A stretch of DNA of 64,000 bases from the NCBI GenBank assembly GCA_964637115.1, contig CAZWVL010000001.1, positions 1 through 64,000 on the forward strand, in the 5' to 3' direction. The notes below the pieces were generated by a model. The model made no database searches. It saw only the letters and a list, made by a program, of their open reading frames with translations, and was not told the DNA's origin. This document shows positions 41,331-49,139 of this stretch, one piece after another; position 1 is the stretch's first letter, and every line of letters starts with the position of its first letter. A program made the position numbers and the translations under genes. The DNA comes from an uncultured Methanosarcinales archaeon. GTDB lineage: Archaea > Nanobdellota > Nanobdellia > Woesearchaeales > ARS49.

Positions 41331-41457
41331 TAATTTCCGGGTTTTTTGATATTTTCTGTAAATCTTCCAGACACACTCGTAAAGTTTACAATTTCTTCGA
41401 CGAAAGAAACTTTAAGGAGTAAAACAAATAGAAAAATGCTGGCTAACGCCAGCAAAC

Positions 41458-41574
41458 GCCGGCGACGGTAAATCAGGTTTACCAGCAGCTTGAGCAGCTG
41501 TGACCCGTAAGGGTTTCGGGGTTCAAATACTTTTCGGTTGCTGGTCCGAAAGGTTGACAATCCCCGCGCCGGCG
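41458..41574 (+). tRNA. Atypical class II tRNA, anticodon read as GAG (Leu), Ser-like acceptor with G73, 33-nt intron at position 59/60 (41528-41560)
   Basis: GCCGGCG/CGCCGGC acceptor; GGTAAA/TTTACC D-stem; GCAGC-TTGAGCA-GCTGT; ACCC-GTAA-GGGT variable arm; CGGGG-TTCAAA^T-CCCCG T-arm with bulge-helix-bulge geometry. Confidence 0.85.
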
Positions 41575-41660
41575 CACATTTTAACACTGAAATAAAGCTT
41601 TGAATAAATGGGGGTTTGAACTGGAGGAAAGGGCGAGGTTTCCGAAAGATTTAAATACTA

Positions 41661-41682
41661 ATTGTCACTATAAAGTGACAAT
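41661..41682. promoter_or_regulatory. Perfect palindrome ATTGTCAC-TATAAA-GTGACAAT between the TATA box (41650-41657) and the start codon
   Basis: Seen directly; repressor-type position. Confidence 0.75.
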
Positions 41683-42828
41683 ATGGTGGTTTCACAAGGG
41701 TTGCTGGAACGTGTACAACAGCTAAAGCAGGAATATGGCATCGGCTCCAAACAGGCGTTTGAATATGTTTCTGCGATACAAAAATACGATGCTCTACTCA
41801 CCAAAGTGCAAACTTCTCAAATTAAACTTCAAACCTCTATGGACCAGCTCAATAGCTTGATGGGCATACGGAAACAGAAAAAAAACAGCACGCCGTCAGT
41901 CGACGAACTCATCAATGTCTGTGACACTTTCCGGCTCGTGTTCAGGGGCTTAGACGTGCGTGACGTGGCAGATTCGCCCAAAAAGGACTTCACGCACACA
42001 TTTGCGATCTTGCAATCCTGCTACAGCGGCACTCCTGCATATCACGTGCTAGACACGCCTGCGCTTGATTCTTTTCTTACGGAGCAAATGCATAAAGCGT
42101 GCGCGGCAGACCCTGCCCAGCGCAACAAACTCATCAACATCACAAAAAATCTGTATGAGCTCGTGGTTTACAACTATTTCATTGAAGAAAGACGTCAGCC
42201 GGTCACTGAAGAAAAACAACTCCGTGGTGTTGCTAAAGCAATCACTACGTCTTTTGACGTGAATCCACGTAGCCTGCATAGAAGGCTAAGAAATCTGGAT
42301 TCCCTGCGCGCCATTGACTCGCTTTCGCTGAAAGACACGCTATACGGAATGCACGGTCATCTGATCGAGCTTGAAGGCATTCCTGGGGACCGGCTTTCGT
42401 GCTACGCGCGCGGAGTACTTGAACAGACCTTGCACTCCGTTGATACCGAACGGCGCATTGCACTGCAGTATATCCGTTCCACGACAGACACTACGCTTCC
42501 GAAAGACGTGCGTATTTCTAATGCGCTTAAGGAACTTGGCAAGGAACTGCGCCTAAGTAGGGTGCCGACTTTTGACCTCATGGATGGTGATGCGTCTGAG
42601 CCTGACTTTGATGAAGGTGTTGCGTTTTGTGCGGGCCGCAAGAAAGCAGATGAACTAGAGAGTTTCAAGCCTGTGCCTGTCGTAAAACGCTCAGCCGAAA
42701 GCATTTATCCTCTTCTTCGTGGAACAGCCACACGCCAAGAAGCACGGGACTACCGCGCGAATGAAGCGACGTACACCACGCGCGCAATTCTTGAAAATGC
42801 AAACTGGTTAAAAAAAATACTCTCTTGA
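41683..42828 (+). CDS. Hypothetical protein
   Basis: 381-aa ORF with TTTAAATA box 25 bp upstream; no motif recognised. Confidence 0.75.
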   Translation: MVVSQGLLERVQQLKQEYGIGSKQAFEYVSAIQKYDALLTKVQTSQIKLQTSMDQLNSLMGIRKQKKNSTPSVDELINVCDTFRLVFRGLDVRDVADSPKKDFTHTFAILQSCYSGTPAYHVLDTPALDSFLTEQMHKACAADPAQRNKLINITKNLYELVVYNYFIEERRQPVTEEKQLRGVAKAITTSFDVNPRSLHRRLRNLDSLRAIDSLSLKDTLYGMHGHLIELEGIPGDRLSCYARGVLEQTLHSVDTERRIALQYIRSTTDTTLPKDVRISNALKELGKELRLSRVPTFDLMDGDASEPDFDEGVAFCAGRKKADELESFKPVPVVKRSAESIYPLLRGTATRQEARDYRANEATYTTRAILENANWLKKILS

Positions 42829-42845
42829 GCTTGCCAATAGTAAAA

Positions 42846-45203
42846 CTATTTCTCGGTTAGTAATTTATCGTACAATGATTTTGAGACTCCCTTTTTGAGT
42901 TCTTTATCAAGTTGTTCCATGAATTGTTCCCGTTGAGAAGGCGGTGGAAGTCGCATCCGTAATTTAAATTCATCCTCATCCATCCTTCCAGCCTCATACT
43001 GCTTAGTTACCTCAGCAACATACTTGTCTTCTGCAATCCGATTTCTTTTCTTATCAACTTCACGTTTCACATCCTTATTTTTAAGAATGCTTTGTTCGCT
43101 GTCAAACGCGTCTTGTGCATTTGCTTTTGTGTATTCTGTCAAGTCCTTGTAAGTTTTTTCATCAAGTGGAATCTTTCTCAATATGGCATCATCAGGAGTT
43201 TCCAATATTTTTTCAATGCTCGTCATCATTTTTTTCCATTCAATTCCCGTCTCGGGTGTAATATCCTCTTCGCTTCCAGAAAAAATGTCAATTTCGTCCA
43301 GGACACACGCACGGCACACGCGCCTATATGCTTTAACACGCGCGTCGATATCGCGCACGCCCTGCATCGTACGCTGTTCTTTATACATATTATACTCTTT
43401 CGTTACTCGTGCGTGTTCCTTCTGCGTATCAACCTCGTACAAACGTTCCACTGCCAAGGCCAATGCTTTTTCTGCTTTAGCAAAATCTTTTTCCTTATAT
43501 GCTCCCATTGCTTCAACAATCTTCTCGTATGCGCTGGCTTTTTTGGCTGCATAATCATTCTTTGTTTCAAACTCTTTCACCAAAACATCCAGCTCGCGTC
43601 TCTTTTCCTCACTTTTCTTTTCTTGGCTGAAATCATCTTTCTTCCAATCCTCAGCCAATTTCAATGCTTTATTGTAACTTTCAAAGACGCTGCTGATAGT
43701 TTTCTGATGATTGGCCAATGTAGCAATGTCCACGCTGTTACGCGACATTTCAATAAGGCTCTTCTGCCTCAGAGTTTCGTATGACTTATTCGCTGCTGCT
43801 CTTATTGCATCTGCGGTAGACACGCTGGAATTTATCTCTGCAATATAATTTTCAACACGCACATTGCGTATACGTTCAGGCTCTTTGGCTTTATGCAATG
43901 ACGTGGCAAGCGCAACAAGTGCGCCAGAAACCGCTGCAGTTGCCAACCATTTCAGACCCTGCTTTCTCAACCTTCTTGTAGTAGGCACAATGAATGACGT
44001 TATTGGGCGTGCTTTAATGCGCCTGCCATCCATCCAGCGCTTCAAATCATCATAAAATGCATTTGCAGACTCATAACGCTTATCGGGATCCTTTGCAGTA
44101 GCCTTGTGAACAATTGCTGCCAGATTCCTGTCAACCTTTTTGTTAAGAAGACGGATGTTTGTTGGGATTCCATTAAGAATAGTTGCGGCACGTTCAGCAA
44201 AGCTTTGGCCTTGGAAGTTATGCACGTATTCCCCTGCCAACATATGATACAATGTTGCACCAATACCAAACACGTCAGTTCGTACATCAACAGGATCAGT
44301 GCCGCTTACTTGTTCAGGCGCCATGTAAGCAAGCGTGCCGACGGTCATTGTACTTTCCTGCTTCTTAATCAGCATTGCAAGACCATAATCAGCCAGCGTC
44401 GCCTTATCTTTATTCTTTTCTTTATCTTTATACATGATATTTCCTGGTTTGATGTCCCTGTGCAGAATTCCTTTATCATGTGCGATTTCAAGCTGCTCTG
44501 CAACTTGAATCACCGTGTTTACGAAATAATCTATGTCAGCTTGGTTGCAGATATACTCTATCTTAGGCTCCCCAGCCGGTACTTCTTCCTTTTTTACAAT
44601 CTTCGTGAGATTTCTCCAAATGCCTGAAGAGGTGGGCACTCCGAACTGCTTATCCATCCGATTTTTAGCTGAGCCGCCTTCAAGCAATTCCATTGCGATA
44701 AACATGTTTCCCTTCCATTCAGAAAAGTCATAAACTTGGAGTATGTTTCTTCCTTGAAGGTTCGCAAGTGAAGTTGCTTCAGTCTCAAATTGCTCAAGTT
44801 CTATAGGAGACGCATTGGTGTTCTTCAAAAACTTCAATGCCACCTGCCGTTTTAATTTAATATGCCGTGCACGGTAAATAATTCCGCTCGCTCCTTCTCC
44901 AATATAAGTTGTATTGGACTCCTTGTCCGGGTTTTCTTCAATTTGATACGCGTCAACCCTGTCGCCCACTTTCAATTTCTGCAAGTCAACCGGCGGATTA
45001 ATCTGTTCTGCAGCACCAACAACAAGCGTCTCCAAGGGCCCGGCACCTTGCGCTTCAGGCGTTGGTTTCGGTGGCTTGGGACCGATGGATGCGTCAAGCA
45101 ACGATTCATCTATATTTTTCAGGAAGTCTGGGAGGCTGCTTTCTTGACCTGCATTCTGGCCTTCTTCTTGAGGCCCGTCAGTCGAATCCTTATCATCCGG
45201 CAT
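42846..45203 (-). CDS. Hanks-type Ser/Thr protein kinase with TM helix and long C-terminal helical region
   Basis: IGEGASG, VALK, HRDIKPGN, DYG, GTLAYMAPEQ, TDVFGIG, PDKRY; TM WLATAAVSGALVALA. Confidence 0.95.
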   Translation of the reverse strand: MPDDKDSTDGPQEEGQNAGQESSLPDFLKNIDESLLDASIGPKPPKPTPEAQGAGPLETLVVGAAEQINPPVDLQKLKVGDRVDAYQIEENPDKESNTTYIGEGASGIIYRARHIKLKRQVALKFLKNTNASPIELEQFETEATSLANLQGRNILQVYDFSEWKGNMFIAMELLEGGSAKNRMDKQFGVPTSSGIWRNLTKIVKKEEVPAGEPKIEYICNQADIDYFVNTVIQVAEQLEIAHDKGILHRDIKPGNIMYKDKEKNKDKATLADYGLAMLIKKQESTMTVGTLAYMAPEQVSGTDPVDVRTDVFGIGATLYHMLAGEYVHNFQGQSFAERAATILNGIPTNIRLLNKKVDRNLAAIVHKATAKDPDKRYESANAFYDDLKRWMDGRRIKARPITSFIVPTTRRLRKQGLKWLATAAVSGALVALATSLHKAKEPERIRNVRVENYIAEINSSVSTADAIRAAANKSYETLRQKSLIEMSRNSVDIATLANHQKTISSVFESYNKALKLAEDWKKDDFSQEKKSEEKRRELDVLVKEFETKNDYAAKKASAYEKIVEAMGAYKEKDFAKAEKALALAVERLYEVDTQKEHARVTKEYNMYKEQRTMQGVRDIDARVKAYRRVCRACVLDEIDIFSGSEEDITPETGIEWKKMMTSIEKILETPDDAILRKIPLDEKTYKDLTEYTKANAQDAFDSEQSILKNKDVKREVDKKRNRIAEDKYVAEVTKQYEAGRMDEDEFKLRMRLPPPSQREQFMEQLDKELKKGVSKSLYDKLLTEK

Positions 45204-45256
45204 ATTTACTTAAGAGCAGCTATCGTATAAAAAGGTTACTTAACAGAGCAGAAATA

Positions 45257-45276
45257 CACCTACTCTTCAGTGGTTA
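45257..45276. promoter_or_regulatory. Palindromic motif copy CACCTAC-TCTTCA-GTGGTTA, 12 bp upstream of TATA 45289-45296
   Basis: Seen directly; degenerate left half. Confidence 0.45.
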
Positions 45277-45318
45277 TAGTTCGGAAGCTTTATATAATGA
45301 GAGCATCTGAAAAAAAGC

Positions 45319-46113
45319 ATGATAAAGTATCTGAGACAGGCCTATTCAATAGCCAGACCATTGGTCATGACAGGAATTCTTGCAATAACCGGCTGTGCAG
45401 ATACAATAACAAGGACAGAATACGAAGCAGCGAGAAAAAAAGATGAAGAAACAGCACAAATGATCCGCGAACAGCTTACCGCTGCCGACAGCCGGTACGA
45501 AAAAGCATTAACTGACCTCAAAAAACTTGTCACAGAACGCACAAGCATACCTGAGCTCATGCCACTCGTTGGGAAAGCAAAGGCAGACATTCTTGAACAA
45601 CTTCAAAAAGACTACAACGATCTCACTGAAAAATTAAAGACAGAGGGAGAAAAGCTTGAACGCACCCGCAGAACAACAGTTTCTGACTTGGAACAACAAA
45701 AAAGATGGTTCGAGCAAACTGCAAAACCAGCGATCGGCAATCCTGAAAGTGCTGAAAAGCCAGCAGATGGCGTTTACAAAGACAGGATAAGAATAGACAA
45801 CCACGACACACGCCTTGCAAACCAAAAAAAAGCATTTCACGATCTCGAGCAGAATCTCGTCTACCATCGCACTGTCCAGGAATGGAGCTACTCCATATAT
45901 GTTGAATTCCGCAACAACATCGAACTAAGCGCAGAAGACCTCCAGAAAAAAATTGAAGCGTTAAACTCAGCAAAACCAGAAGAACGCGCAACAGCGCTGG
46001 AAACATTTGAACGGGATGTGGCGATTTTTGAAAAAAAGATTGAGAATCTATACCAGCAACAAAAGGAAAAGCGGAAAAAAGTGCCGCCAAGGCCTGGGGA
46101 AAAAAATGATTGA
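45319..46113 (+). CDS. Coiled-coil lipoprotein-like protein
   Basis: Lipobox ILAITG-C; heptad-rich. Confidence 0.8.
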   Translation: MIKYLRQAYSIARPLVMTGILAITGCADTITRTEYEAARKKDEETAQMIREQLTAADSRYEKALTDLKKLVTERTSIPELMPLVGKAKADILEQLQKDYNDLTEKLKTEGEKLERTRRTTVSDLEQQKRWFEQTAKPAIGNPESAEKPADGVYKDRIRIDNHDTRLANQKKAFHDLEQNLVYHRTVQEWSYSIYVEFRNNIELSAEDLQKKIEALNSAKPEERATALETFERDVAIFEKKIENLYQQQKEKRKKVPPRPGEKND

Positions 46114-47515
46114 CAAAATATTACGCAGATTACTTTTCTTGGGCGCTCTCGCCACAGCAGGATGCGCAAGCACTGTCAAAGAAGAAGAATTTCTCGCATA
46201 CACGGCAAAATCTGAAATGACTGCAAAGTCACTAAGAGAAGATATAGCCACGGCGCAGAAAAAAACAATGGAAGTAAACGCGCGCTATGACATTCTGCTT
46301 AAAAGCATTGAAGACTTAAACGCGCGAATGTCAGTTTCTTCAATTGACAGTTACGCAGTAGGACTGGAAGAACAGGCAACAAAACAAGCGCGACAATATG
46401 CGCAATTAGTGCGTTCCATCGTAGCACTGCAAAAAAAAGGATGGGAGCTTGGTGACACAACGACTAAGGGAATTAACCAGTTACGTGCAGATTCAACATC
46501 AACTGATAACTCGCTCGACGCAAAAATCTTAGAGCTGAAAAAATTACATGAAGATGCCATAAAAGCATATGAAACGTTCAAAAAAGATGATTATGCAGAC
46601 TTCAAAGATCGAAACTTGCGAGAAACTTCAGCACAAAGGCAAAAAATAGAAACCTTTGAGACCGGCTTGAGAAATCTTTCACGTGTCATTGCGCTCCTGG
46701 AAAAACGCCCAGATCATCCAAAAGCATTGGAACAAGACGGAGAAGGGGCAACGGAATTTGCGTGCGCTGAACTGCACAGACAAATGTTGGGATTCAAGGC
46801 AGCTTCAATAGAACCAACAGCAGATTATGCAACACGCGAAGATATCTCACGCATACTGGTTACACCAGTGAACGCAGAACTTGTAGAACGCGTCCTTGGA
46901 AATATGGCTGTTGGCAATCTGGACCTTGACAGCAAAATAGAACTCTACTCAAAAGCCATAGATGTTTTATCCAATGATTATTCATATCGCGAACGACTTT
47001 ATGGCGTTGCTAATAATAGAAGTGCAATGCTGGCTGTACTAGACGAACTCATCATTCTAAAATTAAAATTACTCGTTGGCCAGGAAGAGTCCACTGTAAT
47101 GAATTATGTTAACGGTTATGCCAAATTTCCTTTCATAAGCAGGCAAAGAAACGACAACCGTGTTCTGCTGGACCTTTTCAGCGGTTTGGGAAGGAAAGGT
47201 GCGGACCTTGGAGAAGTGCTCCTCACCTTCAACGACGGAAAACTTGCCATAGTACAAACCGGGCCAGATGGAAGCTATGTAGCGCTGCTTCAATCGCCAC
47301 AAGAAACTTTCAGACAACAAGTTGTACTAACAAACAATAGTGAAACCGATGCGCACAACCAGCTATTATTCGAGCGTGACAAAAAGACATACATAAACGA
47401 AAAAGAAGAACTCAAGCGTTCTTATACTGATTTAGAACTGCAGCAGCAAACTGACATTCTCCGCAAAAAATACGAGCACTTGTTTGAACCTTTAAATAAA
47501 CAATTAAACAAATAG
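46106..47515 (+). CDS. Coiled-coil lipoprotein-like protein
   Basis: Lipobox ALATAG-C; start moved to ATG 46106, overlapping the upstream stop. Confidence 0.8.
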   Translation: MIDKILRRLLFLGALATAGCASTVKEEEFLAYTAKSEMTAKSLREDIATAQKKTMEVNARYDILLKSIEDLNARMSVSSIDSYAVGLEEQATKQARQYAQLVRSIVALQKKGWELGDTTTKGINQLRADSTSTDNSLDAKILELKKLHEDAIKAYETFKKDDYADFKDRNLRETSAQRQKIETFETGLRNLSRVIALLEKRPDHPKALEQDGEGATEFACAELHRQMLGFKAASIEPTADYATREDISRILVTPVNAELVERVLGNMAVGNLDLDSKIELYSKAIDVLSNDYSYRERLYGVANNRSAMLAVLDELIILKLKLLVGQEESTVMNYVNGYAKFPFISRQRNDNRVLLDLFSGLGRKGADLGEVLLTFNDGKLAIVQTGPDGSYVALLQSPQETFRQQVVLTNNSETDAHNQLLFERDKKTYINEKEELKRSYTDLELQQQTDILRKKYEHLFEPLNKQLNK

Positions 47516-47542
47516 GCGTTTGAAGGAGAAGGTTTGTTATTC

Positions 47543-48427
47543 TTATCGTTTTGCGAGATCAAAAAGACCTTTTGATACTCTTTCTAGTTCTTTCTTAATT
47601 AAAAGTTTATCGACCCAACGCTTCGGAATACCACTAAAGCCGTAATGAGCCCCCGCGATAGCACCTGCTATTGCACAGGTGGTGTCCGCATCCCCTCCTT
47701 GATTAACAACAGCTATCAGCGTATCTTCAAATGAAGTGCGAGTGAAAAGGCCGTATGATGCTGCTTGAATAGTATCTATGATGTAGCCAGATGGCCTAAA
47801 CATTGCAGATTTTTGATAGAGACAAGAAATCAATCTCCCATCAATGGAAAGCTCAGCGGCTTTTTGCTGAGCTTCGGGTAGGGAGGCACCTGCCAATAAT
47901 TGTGCAATTAGCTCATTTACCAACACGCAGGCAGACAAACACAAAGAGTTCGCATGTGTTATTGAAGAATCTTCCTTGCTATAATGCGCCCTTTTCTTCG
48001 CGTCCTTCCAATAAACAATCCCAATCGGGGCACAACGCATAGCACTTCCATTAGCAGCAGAAGGTGCAGGTACCCCGGAGGAGACTGGACTCACTCCTTG
48101 CTTTAATGCCTTCAAAGCTGTTCTTGTTGTAACCCCCATGTCCACTGGACCACTTTCCATCCACTCGACGTATTTCTTCGCAGCATCAAAAATATCATAT
48201 CCTGAACAAGCAATAAGTGAATTGGCAAGACACAATGCCATATCGGTATCATCACTTACCTCTCCAGGTTCAACAGAAAGCCAACCTCCACCAATTATTT
48301 CCTTATGAACACCGTGTTGTTTCCAAATCTCGTCAGGACTCATACGTTCAACAGTCAAACCTAAAGCATCGCCAACAGCAAGACCAAACATACACCCCAT
48401 TACCTGATCGAGAAGATCGTTCCCCAT
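47543..48427 (-). CDS. ADP-ribosylglycohydrolase (DraG/ARH family)
   Basis: GLAVGDALG, SDDTDM, ANGSAMR, ITH and GGDADTTCAIAG motifs. Confidence 0.95.
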   Translation of the reverse strand: MGNDLLDQVMGCMFGLAVGDALGLTVERMSPDEIWKQHGVHKEIIGGGWLSVEPGEVSDDTDMALCLANSLIACSGYDIFDAAKKYVEWMESGPVDMGVTTRTALKALKQGVSPVSSGVPAPSAANGSAMRCAPIGIVYWKDAKKRAHYSKEDSSITHANSLCLSACVLVNELIAQLLAGASLPEAQQKAAELSIDGRLISCLYQKSAMFRPSGYIIDTIQAASYGLFTRTSFEDTLIAVVNQGGDADTTCAIAGAIAGAHYGFSGIPKRWVDKLLIKKELERVSKGLFDLAKR

Positions 48428-48476
48428 ATGACATTAAGAGATCTTGTCATTTATAGGCCTTTCGCATCAATAACCA

Positions 48477-49139
48477 TCAGAAGCTTCTGCTTTTTTTGCG
48501 GTTAAATCCACTCACCAACTGTTTCAGCGCCTTCTCGGGATTCTTGGCGTTTGTAACGGCGTGGGCAACAAGAATGCCTTTTGCACCAAGCTTGATGGTT
48601 TTTGCGACGTCTTCGCGCGAGTGAACACCTGCGCCGCACAGAATAGGAATGTTTTTGATTTTATGCGTTGTGCGCGTTATTATCTCAGGTTTTGCTTCCG
48701 AAATCGAGATGTTTCCGCCAATCAACTCGGGAGGTTCAATCGCAATAATATCTGGCTTGAATTTTGCAACTTTAACAGCCATTGCAGGAGTGCTTGCGCA
48801 GACAACAGACAGCATTCCCAAAGAACGCAAGCGCTGAATTGTTGCCTTAATCTGCGCCAAAGGAATCTGGTGCTCAGAATGATTAATTAAACTGCCAATA
48901 GCTCCCATCTGCTGAACACTTTCAGGAAGAATCCAGCCAGTCTTTGCACCAAACTCGATAGCGTCAACGTGCTGGGCAAGAACTGGAATATTTGTACCGG
49001 CAACTGCAAGAATGTCGGCTGGTTGGACTGCAACAACAATATTAGCCTTCTTGGCAAGTTTTGCGCAAATTTTTGCTAATTTAATTGCATTCAATCCTGT
49101 AGAACTCTTATAAGCCTTGAAATTAATGATGGCGAGCAT
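48477..49139 (-). CDS. tpiA: Triosephosphate isomerase, archaeal type
   Basis: INFKAY, LINHSE, IAIEPPELIG, LCGAGV. Confidence 0.97.
   Translation of the reverse strand: MLAIINFKAYKSSTGLNAIKLAKICAKLAKKANIVVAVQPADILAVAGTNIPVLAQHVDAIEFGAKTGWILPESVQQMGAIGSLINHSEHQIPLAQIKATIQRLRSLGMLSVVCASTPAMAVKVAKFKPDIIAIEPPELIGGNISISEAKPEIITRTTHKIKNIPILCGAGVHSREDVAKTIKLGAKGILVAHAVTNAKNPEKALKQLVSGFNRKKSRSF

What the first reader, a model, noticed from the sequence alone, without database searches (positions are those of the whole stretch)
41458..41574. tRNA with conflicting identity: Leu anticodon, Ser-type acceptor and Sec-like D-arm
Seen: 7/5 cloverleaf starting GCCG with discriminator G73, A8-C9 in place of U8, a 6-bp D-stem (GGTAAA/TTTACC), a long variable arm, and anticodon loop TT-GAG-CA with a pyrimidine at 37. 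The normal tRNA-Leu(CAG) in this window has GCGG.., U8, G37 and A73. Established: A73 is a major LeuRS determinant, SerRS reads the long variable arm, archaeal tRNA-Ser typically has G73, and extended D-stems with G73 occur in tRNA-Sec. An alternative reading is Ser(TGA) in an expanded 9-nt loop (CT-TGA-GCAG). Conserved Leu positions in the helicase use CTT (VLDEAD, 19447) and CTC (MLDMG, 19468), arguing against wholesale CUY-to-Ser recoding. Inference: a mistranslating, frameshifting or non-ribosomal tRNA, or a lineage-specific identity set.
Basis: partly seen in the sequence, partly recalled or inferred. Interest (0 to 1): 0.7.

Follow-up and report, generated by a model that had tools for sequence, protein, structure and literature searches.

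The report
Serine-type tRNA with leucine anticodon
A tiny groundwater archaeon (Woesearchaeota) has an extra, intron-split tRNA gene that is built like a serine tRNA but reads common leucine codons. It belongs to a family of more than 100 such genes in related archaea, with fast-changing anticodons, that I could not find described in the literature and that may mistranslate on purpose or serve a non-ribosomal role.

Summary
Window 41458-41574(+) is a real 117-nt class-II tRNA gene with a 7/5 fold, G73, A8-C9, anticodon loop UUGAGCA (GAG, C37) and a long variable arm. ARAGORN and Rfam miss it only because a 33-nt bulge-helix-bulge intron sits in the T-loop (59/60).

It is not the genome's tRNA-Leu(GAG). 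A canonical A73 copy exists, and CUY codons, 3.4% of all codons, behave as Leu.

The gene belongs to an accessory, non-syntenic family. I collected about 130 copies, 0 to about 14 per genome, in 27 of 151 sampled genomes of the order. All hits were within that one order, whose public records are titled Woesearchaeota or Nanoarchaeia.

The family derives from tRNA-Ser: same length, Ser-type GNRA variable arm, G73 in 100 of 101 copies. Its covariance model scores the genome's own tRNA-Ser at 49-62 bits and tRNA-Leu at 11-34.

Anticodons switch almost at random on the gene tree, yet 87% keep A35, so they read Leu, Phe, Ile or Val codons.

Most likely it is spliced, charged with serine by the single SerRS, and acts as a low-level or conditional mistranslator or a non-ribosomal Ser-tRNA. 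Charging and expression are untested. The Sec-like, frameshift and 9-nt-loop readings are rejected.

This scan has already noted the same family in other genomes.

The parts
41380..41406 (+). Family-specific upstream module (TAAAGTTTACAATTTCTTCGACGAAAG). It is shared by many family genes in other genomes, mostly at a fixed spacing, and is absent upstream of this genome's canonical tRNA genes.
   Evidence: Upstream flanks of 101 family genes compared with upstream flanks of 37 canonical tRNAs of G000. Its function as a regulator binding site is inferred.
41407..41419 (+). BRE/TATA-like promoter element AAACTTTAAGGAG, about 40-50 nt upstream of the mature 5' end. It resembles the AAAGCTTTAAAAG elements of canonical tRNA genes here.
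   Evidence: by sequence comparison only. Transcription was not shown.
41420..41436 (+). A-rich tract, conserved in the family. It reads as a T-run on the minus strand.
41437..41454 (.). GC hairpin (GCTGGC-TAAC-GCCAGC) in the predicted 5' leader. On the minus strand it is followed by TTTTT, so it looks like a terminator. About a third of family genes have an equivalent hairpin with a different sequence.
41458..41574 (+). Precursor tRNA gene, 117 nt, from position 1 to discriminator G73. CCA is not encoded, as in this genome's other tRNAs.
   Evidence: (112.6 bits, E = 1e-19).
41458..41464 (+). Acceptor stem, 5' strand GCCGGCG. It pairs with 41567-41573.
   Evidence: 99% of family cells paired, 6 of 7 pairs with compensatory changes.
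41465..41466 (+). A8-C9 linker. U8 occurs in 82 of 101 relatives and A8 in 16.
41467..41483 (+). D-arm GGTA-AATCAGGTT-TACC, a 4-bp stem with G18G19 in the loop. Two extra A-U pairs are possible in this copy.
41485..41501 (+). Anticodon arm: stem GCAGC/GCTGT (G30:C40 present) and loop UUGAGCA. The anticodon GAG is at 41492-41494 and C37 at 41495.
41502..41516 (+). Long variable arm: G44, a 4-bp stem ACCC/GGGT, a GUAA tetraloop, then UU. The GNRA loop matches this genome's tRNA-Ser (GCAA/GAAA) and not its tRNA-Leu (UUAGU).
41517..41527 (+). T-stem 5' strand CGGGG followed by T-loop positions 54-59 (TTCAAA). TTCA also forms the central helix of the BHB motif.
41528..41560 (+). 33-nt intron at 59/60; cuts at 57/58 to 60/61 would give the same mature sequence. 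The 5' bulge is AAT (41526-41528). The inner helix is ACTTTTCGG/CCGAAAGGT (41529-41537 with 41546-41554). The central-helix strand TGAC (41555-41558) makes 3 bp plus one U.C mismatch. The 3' bulge is AAT (41559-41561).
   Evidence: In the family the central helix has 4 bp in 93 of 101 members and the 3' bulge has 3 nt in 99 of 101. Splicing itself is inferred.
41561..41574 (+). U60, T-stem 3' strand CCCCG, acceptor 3' strand CGCCGGC, and discriminator G73.
   Evidence: G73 in 100 of 101 members.
41575..41582 (+). CACATTTT, a T-run of the kind that ends archaeal transcripts. Most family genes have C-A/C-C followed by Ts at this place.
   Evidence: the terminator role is inferred.

Best explanation
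Shown: this is an intact, selected, supernumerary class-II tRNA gene. It belongs to an accessory gene family restricted, in the genomes searched, to one DPANN order whose public records are titled Woesearchaeota or Nanoarchaeia. The family descends from a tRNA-Ser gene that already carried a T-loop intron.

Inferred pathway:
1. The gene is transcribed from its own BRE/TATA-like promoter with a short hairpin leader.
2. The single EndA of the genome removes the 33-nt intron at the bulge-helix-bulge motif, restoring a normal T-loop (UUCAAAU).
3. CCA is added.
4. The genome's only SerRS, which does not read anticodons, charges the tRNA with serine. It would do so through G73, G30:C40 and the Ser-type long variable arm. 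G73 and the lack of a Leu-type variable-arm loop should keep LeuRS off.

The product would be Ser-tRNA(GAG). It would compete with the canonical Leu-tRNA(GAG) for CUC and CUU codons. It would then cause low-level or conditional Leu-to-Ser mistranslation, or else be kept out of the ribosome and used as a serine carrier.

The family's anticodons turn over very fast but stay within G34-A35-N36, which reads NUY codons for Leu, Phe, Ile and Val. So the anticodon is under some selection even though it does not match the tRNA body.
For: Real, selected gene:
- Fold z = -5.3.
- ARAGORN calls a tRNA once the insert is removed.
- The covariance model finds about 100 strong homologues in 77 family genomes and in 27 of 151 sampled genomes of the order.
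- 95.7% of pair cells are paired and 31 of 36 pairs covary.
- The hBHBh' motif is conserved.
- The genome has an EndA gene. Alpha4-type EndAs of DPANN are associated with disrupted tRNA genes (PMC5829648).
- A promoter-like element and a T-run are present.
- The DNA is present in sediment metagenome runs from two studies.

Serine ancestry and identity:
- R1 scores the genome's tRNA-Ser at 62.5, 58.2 and 49.1 bits, tRNA-Leu at 33.6, 32.7 and 10.9, Ile at 32.5 and Phe at 24.9.
- The spliced length is 84 nt, equal to tRNA-Ser(UGA). The alignment to tRNA-Ser is 63-68% identical with 4-5 gaps, against 59-60% with 6-12 gaps for tRNA-Leu.
- The variable arm CCGNAAGG is like tRNA-Ser.
- G73 is present in 100 of 101 members and G30:C40 in 67 of 101.
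- True tRNA-Ser(UGA) and tRNA-Ser(GGA) genes with the same T-loop intron exist in related MAGs.
- The genome has one bacterial-type SerRS.

Supernumerary, with no recoding:
- Canonical Leu(GAG) with A73 is present here, and at 92-95% identity in four copy-bearing relatives.
- Canonical Phe(GAA) and Ile(GAU) coexist with family copies carrying the same anticodons.
- CTT and CTC codons of G000 align to Leu in 63% and 61% of cases and to Ser in 1.0%, like the other Leu codons.

Anticodon behaviour:
- GAA 27, GAG 22, GAU 16 and CAG 9 lead the list; A35 is kept in 87% of members.
- In close pairs the loop differs at 0.23-0.56 per site, against 0.18 for the intron and 0.035 for the acceptor stem.
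- The gene tree needs 60 anticodon changes, against 63.1 +/- 2.3 for shuffled labels. The host-genus label needs 52 against 71.8 +/- 2.0.
Against: No expression, splicing or charging data exist; no RNA run was listed.

CUY codons make up 33.5 per 1000 codons. Efficient Ser insertion at those codons would be very damaging.

This copy has features expected to weaken a decoding tRNA: A8 in place of U8, C37, and a U.C mismatch in the BHB central helix. In the family, 13% have C33 and 22% have C37.

The restriction of anticodons to hydrophobic codon boxes is what one would expect if the cargo were a hydrophobic amino acid, not serine.

Identity rules are known for only a few archaea and none for DPANN.

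The acceptor stem is more uniform than SerRS should require. That could point to another partner protein, or to recent spread of the gene.
Confidence: 0.5

Rival explanations
1. The tRNA is charged with leucine, or with the amino acid its anticodon specifies, under a lineage-specific identity set. It would then be a harmless extra isoacceptor, or a conservative Leu-for-Phe/Ile/Val substituter.
For: 40% of family anticodons are Leu and another 47% are Phe, Ile or Val. That is the set selection would tolerate for a hydrophobic cargo. LeuRS does not read anticodons and uses the long variable arm. Archaeal identity rules are poorly known (PMC9976931). The nematode nev-tRNAs are class-II tRNAs that carry Leu whatever their anticodon (PMC3333845).
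Against: G73 is invariant (100 of 101), while all canonical tRNA-Leu of this genome have A73. G73 blocks LeuRS in H. volcanii. The variable-arm loop is Ser-type GNRA and not the Leu-type UUAGU. The family model prefers tRNA-Ser by 25-30 bits. Members with GAA or GAU anticodons lack the A73 of the canonical tRNA-Phe and tRNA-Ile that sit beside them in the same genomes.
Confidence: 0.2
2. The RNA is made and perhaps serylated but does not work in ordinary decoding. It could be a serine donor for a tRNA-dependent reaction. It could be a decoy or target for an anticodon-loop nuclease or a modification enzyme that reads U33-G34-A35. Or it could be the RNA component of a small mobile, toxin-antitoxin-like module controlled by an antisense transcript.
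For: - The gene is accessory and non-syntenic. The 381-aa gene next to it has no homologue in 14 congeners, and in G001 the family gene sits in a different gap of the same gene block.
- Copies cluster in variable islands.
- A family-specific upstream module is carried along with the gene.
- U33, G34 and A35 are conserved while position 36 is free, and 22% of members have C37.
- The tRNA gene is bracketed on the minus strand by a promoter-like CAAAGCTTTATTTCAG (41602-41587) and a hairpin followed by a T-run (41454-41437).
Against: - No conserved partner protein lies within +/-1.5 to 4 kb.
- No conserved minus-strand promoter is seen across the family.
- No att-like repeat is present.
- No hit was found in viral contigs.
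- The tRNA core needed for an L-shape is kept: G18G19, T54-C56, A58 and G53:C61. This fits a molecule that meets the standard tRNA machinery.
Confidence: 0.22
3. It is a decaying tRNA-Ser pseudogene, or a leftover integration site, with no function of its own.
For: This copy has A8, C37 and a mismatch in the BHB central helix. The anticodon loop evolves faster than any other part.
Against: All stems are kept by compensatory changes across more than 100 copies. G73, the BHB motif, the promoter module and the terminator are conserved. The family persists across many taxonomic families of the order. U33, G34 and A35 are not randomised. No partial repeat of the 3' end was found.
Confidence: 0.04
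4. It is a tRNA-Sec relative, a frameshift or quadruplet decoder, or a Ser(UGA) tRNA with a 9-nt anticodon loop.
For: G73, a long variable arm, A8 and a possible 6-bp D-stem in this copy. TGA can be read in the loop if pair 31:39 is opened.
Against: The fold is 7/5, not 9/4 or 8/5. The anticodon is not UCA. The 6-bp D-stem is possible in only 20 of 101 relatives. The loop is 7 nt in 99 of 101 members and pair 31:39 covaries. Most relatives read CUGA.., which puts no UGA in register.
Confidence: 0.02

Closest known systems
allo-tRNAs of bacteria (Mukai et al. 2017, PMC5389517; reviewed in PMC7609411)
   Same: Both are extra tRNAs with SerRS identity elements (G73, long variable arm) and highly diverse non-Ser anticodons. 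Both have a patchy distribution, multiple copies, and a possible link to mobile or toxin-antitoxin-type elements. Some allo-tRNAs insert Ser at Leu codons when expressed in E. coli.
   Different: Allo-tRNAs are defined by an 8/4 or 9/3 acceptor/T fold derived from tRNA-Sec-like structures, and they are bacterial. This family is 7/5, archaeal, derived from ordinary tRNA-Ser, always carries a T-loop BHB intron, and concentrates on G-A-N anticodons instead of UAU, GCG and GUC.
Nematode nev-tRNAs (Hamashima et al. 2012, PMC3333845)
   Same: Both are class-II (long variable arm) tRNAs whose anticodon matches neither Leu nor Ser rules. Both are lineage-specific and coexist with a standard genetic code. 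nev-tRNAs are charged according to the tRNA body and not the anticodon, and can decode in vitro.
   Different: nev-tRNAs derive from tRNA-Leu, are charged with Leu, tend to match rare codons and are eukaryotic. This gene derives from tRNA-Ser and matches common codons (CUY = 33.5 per 1000). Its family switches anticodons very fast.
tRNA-Ser(CAG) of CUG-clade yeasts
   Same: A serine tRNA body with a leucine-box anticodon that arose by a small change in the anticodon loop of a tRNA-Ser. (This comparison rests on my own knowledge, not on a paper read here.)
   Different: In the yeasts it is the decoder of CUG, and the codon is reassigned or ambiguous genome-wide. Here a canonical tRNA-Leu(GAG) is present and CUY codons sit at Leu positions.
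Archaeal tRNA genes with non-canonical BHB introns (Thermoproteales, ARMAN and other DPANN; PMC3239211, PMC5829648)
   Same: An hBHBh' motif lies outside position 37/38 and is removed by EndA. Standard tRNA finders miss such genes.
   Different: Those introns interrupt ordinary tRNAs whose identity and anticodon agree. Here the 59/60 intron is the hallmark of a whole family whose identity and anticodon disagree.

Membership tests
Archaeal tRNA-Leu | Discriminator A73 | tested here: not met
   G at 41574. G73 is present in 100 of 101 family members, while all canonical tRNA-Leu of G000 have A73.
Archaeal tRNA-Leu | Leu-type long variable arm (loop UUAGU in this genome's tRNA-Leu) | tested here: not met
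   The loop is GUAA (GNRA), as in this genome's tRNA-Ser. R1 scores tRNA-Leu at only 11-34 bits.
Archaeal tRNA-Leu | Leu anticodon | tested here: met
   GAG at 41492-41494. However, close relatives carry GAA or GCG.
tRNA-Ser (by aminoacylation identity) | Long variable arm of Ser size and orientation | tested here: met
   The variable region is 15 nt with a 4-bp stem. It aligns without gaps in the D- and variable arms to tRNA-Ser(UGA) and tRNA-Ser(GGA) in the model alignment. The spliced length is 84 nt.
tRNA-Ser (by aminoacylation identity) | G73, and G30:C40 as the secondary element (PMC9976931) | tested here: met
   Both are present in this gene. In the family, G73 occurs in 100 of 101 members and G30:C40 in 67 of 101.
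tRNA-Ser (by aminoacylation identity) | Serylation by SerRS | not testable with these tools
   One bacterial-type SerRS gene is present.
tRNA-Ser (by decoding) | Ser anticodon (NGA or GCU) | tested here: not met
   The anticodon is GAG. Only 1 of 99 family members in A2 has a Ser anticodon.
tRNA-Sec | 13-bp acceptor/T branch (9/4 in archaea, 8/5 in bacteria) | tested here: not met
   The fold is 7/5 here and throughout the family.
tRNA-Sec | Anticodon UCA | tested here: not met
   The anticodon is GAG.
tRNA-Sec | 6-bp D-stem with a 4-nt loop | tested here: inconclusive
   A 6-bp stem with a 5-nt loop can be drawn in this copy. It is possible in only 20 of 101 relatives.
allo-tRNA | 8/4 or 9/3 cloverleaf | tested here: not met
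   The fold is 7/5.
allo-tRNA | SerRS identity elements combined with diverse non-Ser anticodons | tested here: met
nev-tRNA | Class-II body whose anticodon belongs to another amino acid, coexisting with the standard code | tested here: met
nev-tRNA | Derived from tRNA-Leu and charged with Leu | tested here: not met
   The ancestry is tRNA-Ser. Charging was not tested.
Archaeal BHB intron | Two 3-nt bulges on opposite strands, separated by a 4-bp helix and flanked by helices | tested here: met
   In the family the central helix has 4 bp in 93 of 101 members and the 3' bulge has 3 nt in 99 of 101. The inner and outer helices covary. This copy has 3 bp plus one U.C mismatch, i.e. a slightly relaxed motif.
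Archaeal BHB intron | Splicing endonuclease encoded in the genome | tested here: met
   One endA gene of 175 aa matches TIGR00324 at 112 bits. Cleavage was not tested.
Codon reassignment (CUG-clade type) | The mismatched tRNA is the decoder of the codon, and the codon sits at positions of the new amino acid | tested here: not met
   A canonical tRNA-Leu(GAG) is present. CTT and CTC align to Leu in 63% and 61% of cases and to Ser in 1.0%.

The most novel reading that the evidence does not exclude
Woesearchaeota carry a mobile, separately regulated family of deliberately mismatched tRNAs that put serine at hydrophobic NUY codons (Leu, Phe, Ile, Val). The family would be kept by selection because of that effect. 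One possibility is a tRNA-based toxin or abortive-infection or addiction module, perhaps held in check by a cis-antisense RNA. Another is a switch that diversifies the proteome. Rapid anticodon switching would then be the evolutionary signature of an arms race.
Probability: 0.2. Interest if true: 0.9.

Novelty: new variant of a known kind. Interest (0 to 1): 0.75.

Why it matters
Natural tRNAs whose body and anticodon disagree are rare. The known cases are the bacterial allo-tRNAs, the nematode nev-tRNAs and the CUG-clade yeast tRNA-Ser(CAG). Each has informed thinking on how the genetic code can be bent, and the allo-tRNAs have also served as chassis for code engineering.

This would be the first archaeal case. 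It is also an unusually large and clean one:
- about 130 copies collected here;
- a diagnostic T-loop intron;
- a clear tRNA-Ser origin;
- near-random anticodon turnover that nevertheless stays within hydrophobic codon boxes.

Two practical points follow. Standard annotation misses every member, so tRNA sets of DPANN genomes are incomplete. Tools that infer the genetic code from tRNA content could be misled by such genes.

If charging with Ser is confirmed, the family gives a tractable system for asking why cells keep tRNAs that should be toxic.

Tried and rejected
- **Default tRNA detection.** Default ARAGORN, Rfam at gathering threshold and Rfam at E-value threshold do not see the gene. The T-loop insert explains this.
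- **RNA evidence.** No RNA holder was listed for the locus.
- **Conserved neighbours.** None within +/-1.5 kb in 8 loci, in a wider set, or within +/-4 kb in 65 loci. Pfam finds nothing informative next to the gene, only a SpoIIM-like protein and a Ser/Thr kinase.
- **Integration-site idea.** No repeat of the tRNA 3' end in the window and no GC anomaly.
- **Viral carriage.** A strict family pattern gave 0 hits in viral contigs.
- **Second SerRS or dedicated synthetase.** Only one SerRS was found among four class-IIa hits.
- **Family members as sole decoders.** I asked whether GAA members replace canonical tRNA-Phe. A first BLAST found none in four genomes. A pattern search then found canonical A73 tRNA-Phe, some with introns, in G001, G004, G032 and G090. 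G025 remains unresolved.
- **Conserved antisense promoter.** Not seen across the family.
- **Intron as antisense to another RNA.** Only one 13-nt match in the genome, which is about what chance gives.
- **Paralogous proteins beside family copies.** A protein family interspersed with family tRNAs in two genomes has no Pfam match.
- **9-nt-loop Ser(UGA), Sec-like and frameshift readings.** Rejected on comparative grounds.
Full report
**What is there.**
Window 41458-41574(+) folds into a cloverleaf with a 7-bp acceptor stem, a 5-bp T-stem, a long variable arm and a 7-nt anticodon loop UUGAGCA. The minimum free energy is -56.7 kcal/mol against -37.4 +/- 3.6 for shuffles (z = -5.3). ARAGORN and Rfam miss it because 40 nt, not 7, lie between the two strands of the T-stem. 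Removing 33 nt restores UUCAAAU, and ARAGORN then calls an 85-nt tRNA-Leu(gag) at default settings.

**The insert is a bulge-helix-bulge intron.**
In an alignment of 25 homologues, RNAalifold recovers the following from the outside in:
- the T-stem as outer helix, which covaries;
- a 3-nt bulge on the 3' side whose last base, T, is invariant;
- a 4-bp central helix formed by T-loop UUCA and intron UGAA;
- a 3-nt bulge on the 5' side;
- a covarying inner helix.

Cutting after the second bulge base places the intron at 59/60. Across 101 homologues the central helix has 4 bp in 93 and the 3' bulge has 3 nt in 99. This copy has one U.C mismatch in the central helix. The genome encodes one EndA of 175 aa. 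Alpha4-type EndAs of DPANN archaea have been linked to disrupted tRNA genes (PMC5829648). Splicing itself is inferred.

**It is not the genome's tRNA-Leu(GAG).**
The 1.27-Mb assembly (27 contigs, 98% complete) has a canonical tRNA-Leu(GAG) with A73 at C16:2425-2510. It also has a canonical tRNA-Ser(UGA) at C15:7119-7202.

**It is one of a large family.**
- BLAST, then a covariance model (R1), found about 100 strong matches of 107-145 nt in the 77 genomes of the same taxonomic family. Copy number ranges from 0 to about 14 per genome. In the same genus, G002, G003, G006, G011 and G012 show no family-level match, only the weaker matches that ordinary tRNA-Ser genes give.
- In samples of the order, 27 of 151 genomes had matches. 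In a sample of the phylum, all hits fell in the same order.
- An exact-pattern scan of 185,579 species genomes gave 65 hits. Nearly all are in records titled Candidatus Woesearchaeota, Nanoarchaeia or Nanoarchaeota. Several carry automatic 'Methanosarcinales' labels, two are labelled Undinarchaeota and one is a bacterial MAG label.
- Contig lengths identify relatives G032, G025 and G090 as Woesearchaeota MAGs.
- On the 101-sequence alignment, 95.7% of pair cells are standard pairs and 31 of 36 pairs have compensatory changes. The covariation score is 0.528 against 0.086 or less for slid controls. That alignment is fitted to the model.

**The family comes from tRNA-Ser.**
- R1 scores this genome's tRNA-Ser genes at 62.5, 58.2 and 49.1 bits. 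It scores tRNA-Leu at 33.6, 32.7 and 10.9, tRNA-Ile at 32.5 and tRNA-Phe at 24.9.
- The spliced gene is 84 nt, the same as tRNA-Ser(UGA). It aligns to tRNA-Ser with fewer gaps than to tRNA-Leu.
- The variable arm (YCCGNAAGGR, a GNRA loop) is that of the genome's tRNA-Ser and not the UUAGU-loop arm of its tRNA-Leu.
- G73 is present in 100 of 101 members. G30:C40 is present in 67 of 101, including this one.
- Among 29 further members from the pattern scan, two are true tRNA-Ser(UGA) genes and one is a tRNA-Ser(GGA). The GGA gene also has an anticodon-loop intron. All three carry the same T-loop intron. The likely ancestor is therefore an intron-bearing tRNA-Ser.
- By published rules, serine identity depends on the variable arm and not on the anticodon. 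G73 and then G30:C40 are the strong elements for bacterial-type and archaeal SerRS. G73 blocks LeuRS in Haloferax volcanii (PMC9976931). The genome has a single, bacterial-type SerRS.

**Anticodons.**
- In 99 members with a 7-nt loop the anticodons are GAA 27, GAG 22, GAU 16, CAG 9, GUC 5 and CAA 4. GCG, CUC, UAG, AAG and GAC occur twice each, and GCC, ACG, CAC, UAC, GCU and UAA once each. So 87% have A35 and read Leu, Phe, Ile or Val codons. U33 is kept in 86 of 99 and a purine at position 37 in 77 of 99. The 29 additional members show the same spectrum.
- The closest relatives of this gene, in the same genus, carry GAA (L002) and GCG (L003).
- In 39 close pairs, at least 85% identical outside the loop, the seven loop positions differ at 0.23-0.56 per site. 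The intron differs at 0.18, the variable arm at 0.20 and the acceptor stem at 0.035.
- On a tree built without the loop columns, the anticodon needs 60 changes against 63.1 +/- 2.3 for shuffled labels. The genus of the host genome needs 52 against 71.8 +/- 2.0 (0 of 300 shuffles as low). The tree therefore carries signal, and the anticodon is almost uncoupled from it.
- In short, anticodons switch very fast but within a restricted set.

**The family is supernumerary and the code is standard.**
- Canonical tRNA-Leu(GAG) at 92-95% identity and canonical tRNA-Ile(GAU) are present in genomes with many copies.
- Canonical A73 tRNA-Phe(GAA) was found in G001, G004, G010, G017, G032, G090 and the closed genome G160.
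- In ThrRS, CTT and CTC of this genome fall on columns conserved as Leu in 9 of 10 cases.
- Over 259 protein pairs against relatives, CTT and CTC align to Leu in 63% and 61% of cases and to Ser in 1.0%, like the other four Leu codons.
- CUY codons are common, at 33.5 per 1000 codons.

**Genomic setting.**
- No protein gene is conserved beside family members.
- The gene lies at the edge of a 7.2-kb variable stretch (about 41331-48504) between genes that are syntenic in congeners.
- The adjacent 381-aa ORF has no homologue in 14 genomes of the genus.
- In G001 the family gene, with about 125 nt of upstream sequence, sits in another intergenic gap of the same block.
- Copies often cluster on a contig.
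- Family genes share an upstream module (AAACTTTACGG..TTTCTCGTCGA..), a TTTAAG-type box and an A-rich tract. This genome's canonical tRNA promoters lack all three. About a third, including this one, have a GC hairpin in the predicted leader.
- A T-run follows the gene.

**Interpretation.**
The shown facts are these. This is a selected, intron-containing tRNA gene, derived from tRNA-Ser, supernumerary and accessory, with fast-switching anticodons held to G-A-N, in a genome with the standard code.

The inferred steps are transcription, BHB splicing, CCA addition, serylation by SerRS, and rejection by LeuRS.

What the Ser-tRNA(GAG) then does is open. It may mistranslate Leu as Ser at a low level or under particular conditions. 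It may instead act away from the ribosome.

One observation fits the serine reading poorly. The preference for hydrophobic codon boxes would be natural if the cargo were hydrophobic (rival 1), or if damage were the selected effect (the novel case).

I found no description of such an archaeal family in the held literature. The nearest described systems are the bacterial allo-tRNAs (PMC5389517, PMC7609411), the nematode nev-tRNAs (PMC3333845) and the CUG-clade yeast tRNA-Ser(CAG).

**Earlier notes of this scan.**
The scan's notes report the same kind of gene in other Woesearchaeota-like genomes. I used them as leads only, for the nev-tRNA comparison and the antisense idea.

**Unpublished genomes.**
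Some rows come from genomes marked unpublished:
- G010: L002, L020, L109 and L145.
- G023: L058.
- G081: L049.

G094-G096, G099 and G196 enter only the tallies. The statement that the closest relative L002 carries GAA, and the canonical tRNA-Phe in G010, rest on G010. No conclusion depends on these genomes alone, because L003 from G014 and the other rows show the same pattern.

Noticed in passing
window 41437-41454 (minus strand) and 41587-41602 (minus strand): The tRNA gene is bracketed on the minus strand. Downstream of it lies a BRE/TATA-like CAAAGCTTTATTTCAG. Just upstream of its 5' end lies a 7-bp hairpin followed by TTTTT. Together they could give a roughly 130-nt cis-antisense RNA covering the whole precursor. 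The A-rich tract (a T-run on the minus strand) is present in the whole family, but the minus-strand promoter is not conserved.
   Followed up: partly
window 41380-41436; upstream flanks of loci L009-L105: A conserved upstream module (AAACTTTACGG-N-TTTCTCGTCGA, then CTTTAAGAAG, then an A-rich tract) travels with family genes. It is absent from canonical tRNA promoters of this genome. It may be a binding site for a dedicated regulator.
   Followed up: partly
L148:9446-19263, L149:230-10326, L150:3685-5386: In two Woesearchaeota genomes (G025 contig 17, G090 contig 1), family tRNA genes are interspersed with a paralogous protein family of 175-614 aa. The proteins share an N-terminal motif MSDERLRELERKWxETG and have no Pfam match.
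   Followed up: partly
window 41331-48504: A 7.2-kb variable stretch lies between genes that are syntenic in congeners. It holds the 381-aa orphan ORF (41683-42828; no homologue in 14 genomes of the genus), a Hanks-type Ser/Thr kinase (42846-45203, minus strand) and two ORFs with no Pfam match (45319-46113, 46007-47515). Parts of the kinase region do occur in G005 and G014.
   Followed up: partly
G000 C2:17030-17196: ARAGORN's tRNA-Ser(gct) call with a 78-nt 'intron' looks false: the fold is poor and the sequence resembles coding DNA. AGY codons align to Ser, so a real tRNA-Ser(GCU) must exist. It is probably broken by several introns and was found by neither ARAGORN nor R1.
   Followed up: no
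L220:4179-4294, L261:2885-3000, L249:7413-7551: These are true tRNA-Ser genes with the same T-loop intron as the family. L220 and L261, on contigs labelled Undinarchaeota, carry UGA. L249, in a Woesearchaeota MAG, carries GGA and also has an anticodon-loop intron. They are likely models of the family's ancestor. The Ser(UGA) loop CUUGAAA differs from the commonest family loop CUGAAAC by a single-base shift.
   Followed up: partly
L106-L110, L114, L116: A sub-group of the family has a longer, different variable arm (GACAYT...) and canonical-looking loops with G37: CUGAAGA (Phe type), CUGAUGA and CUCAAGA. These copies look better suited to decoding than the window's copy.
   Followed up: no
L258:3775-3891: One family gene lies on a contig binned as the bacterium 'Candidatus Auribacter fodinae' (SURF_26). 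The record name carries the same Ga0104751 prefix as the contigs of the Woesearchaeota MAG SURF_65, so the contig is probably mis-binned.
   Followed up: no
L165:1493-1588, L167, L141, L142, L144: Canonical tRNA-Phe and tRNA-Ile genes of relatives carry introns at or near 37/38-41 that differ between sister genomes. A plain BLAST with an intron-less tRNA query therefore misses them.
   Followed up: partly
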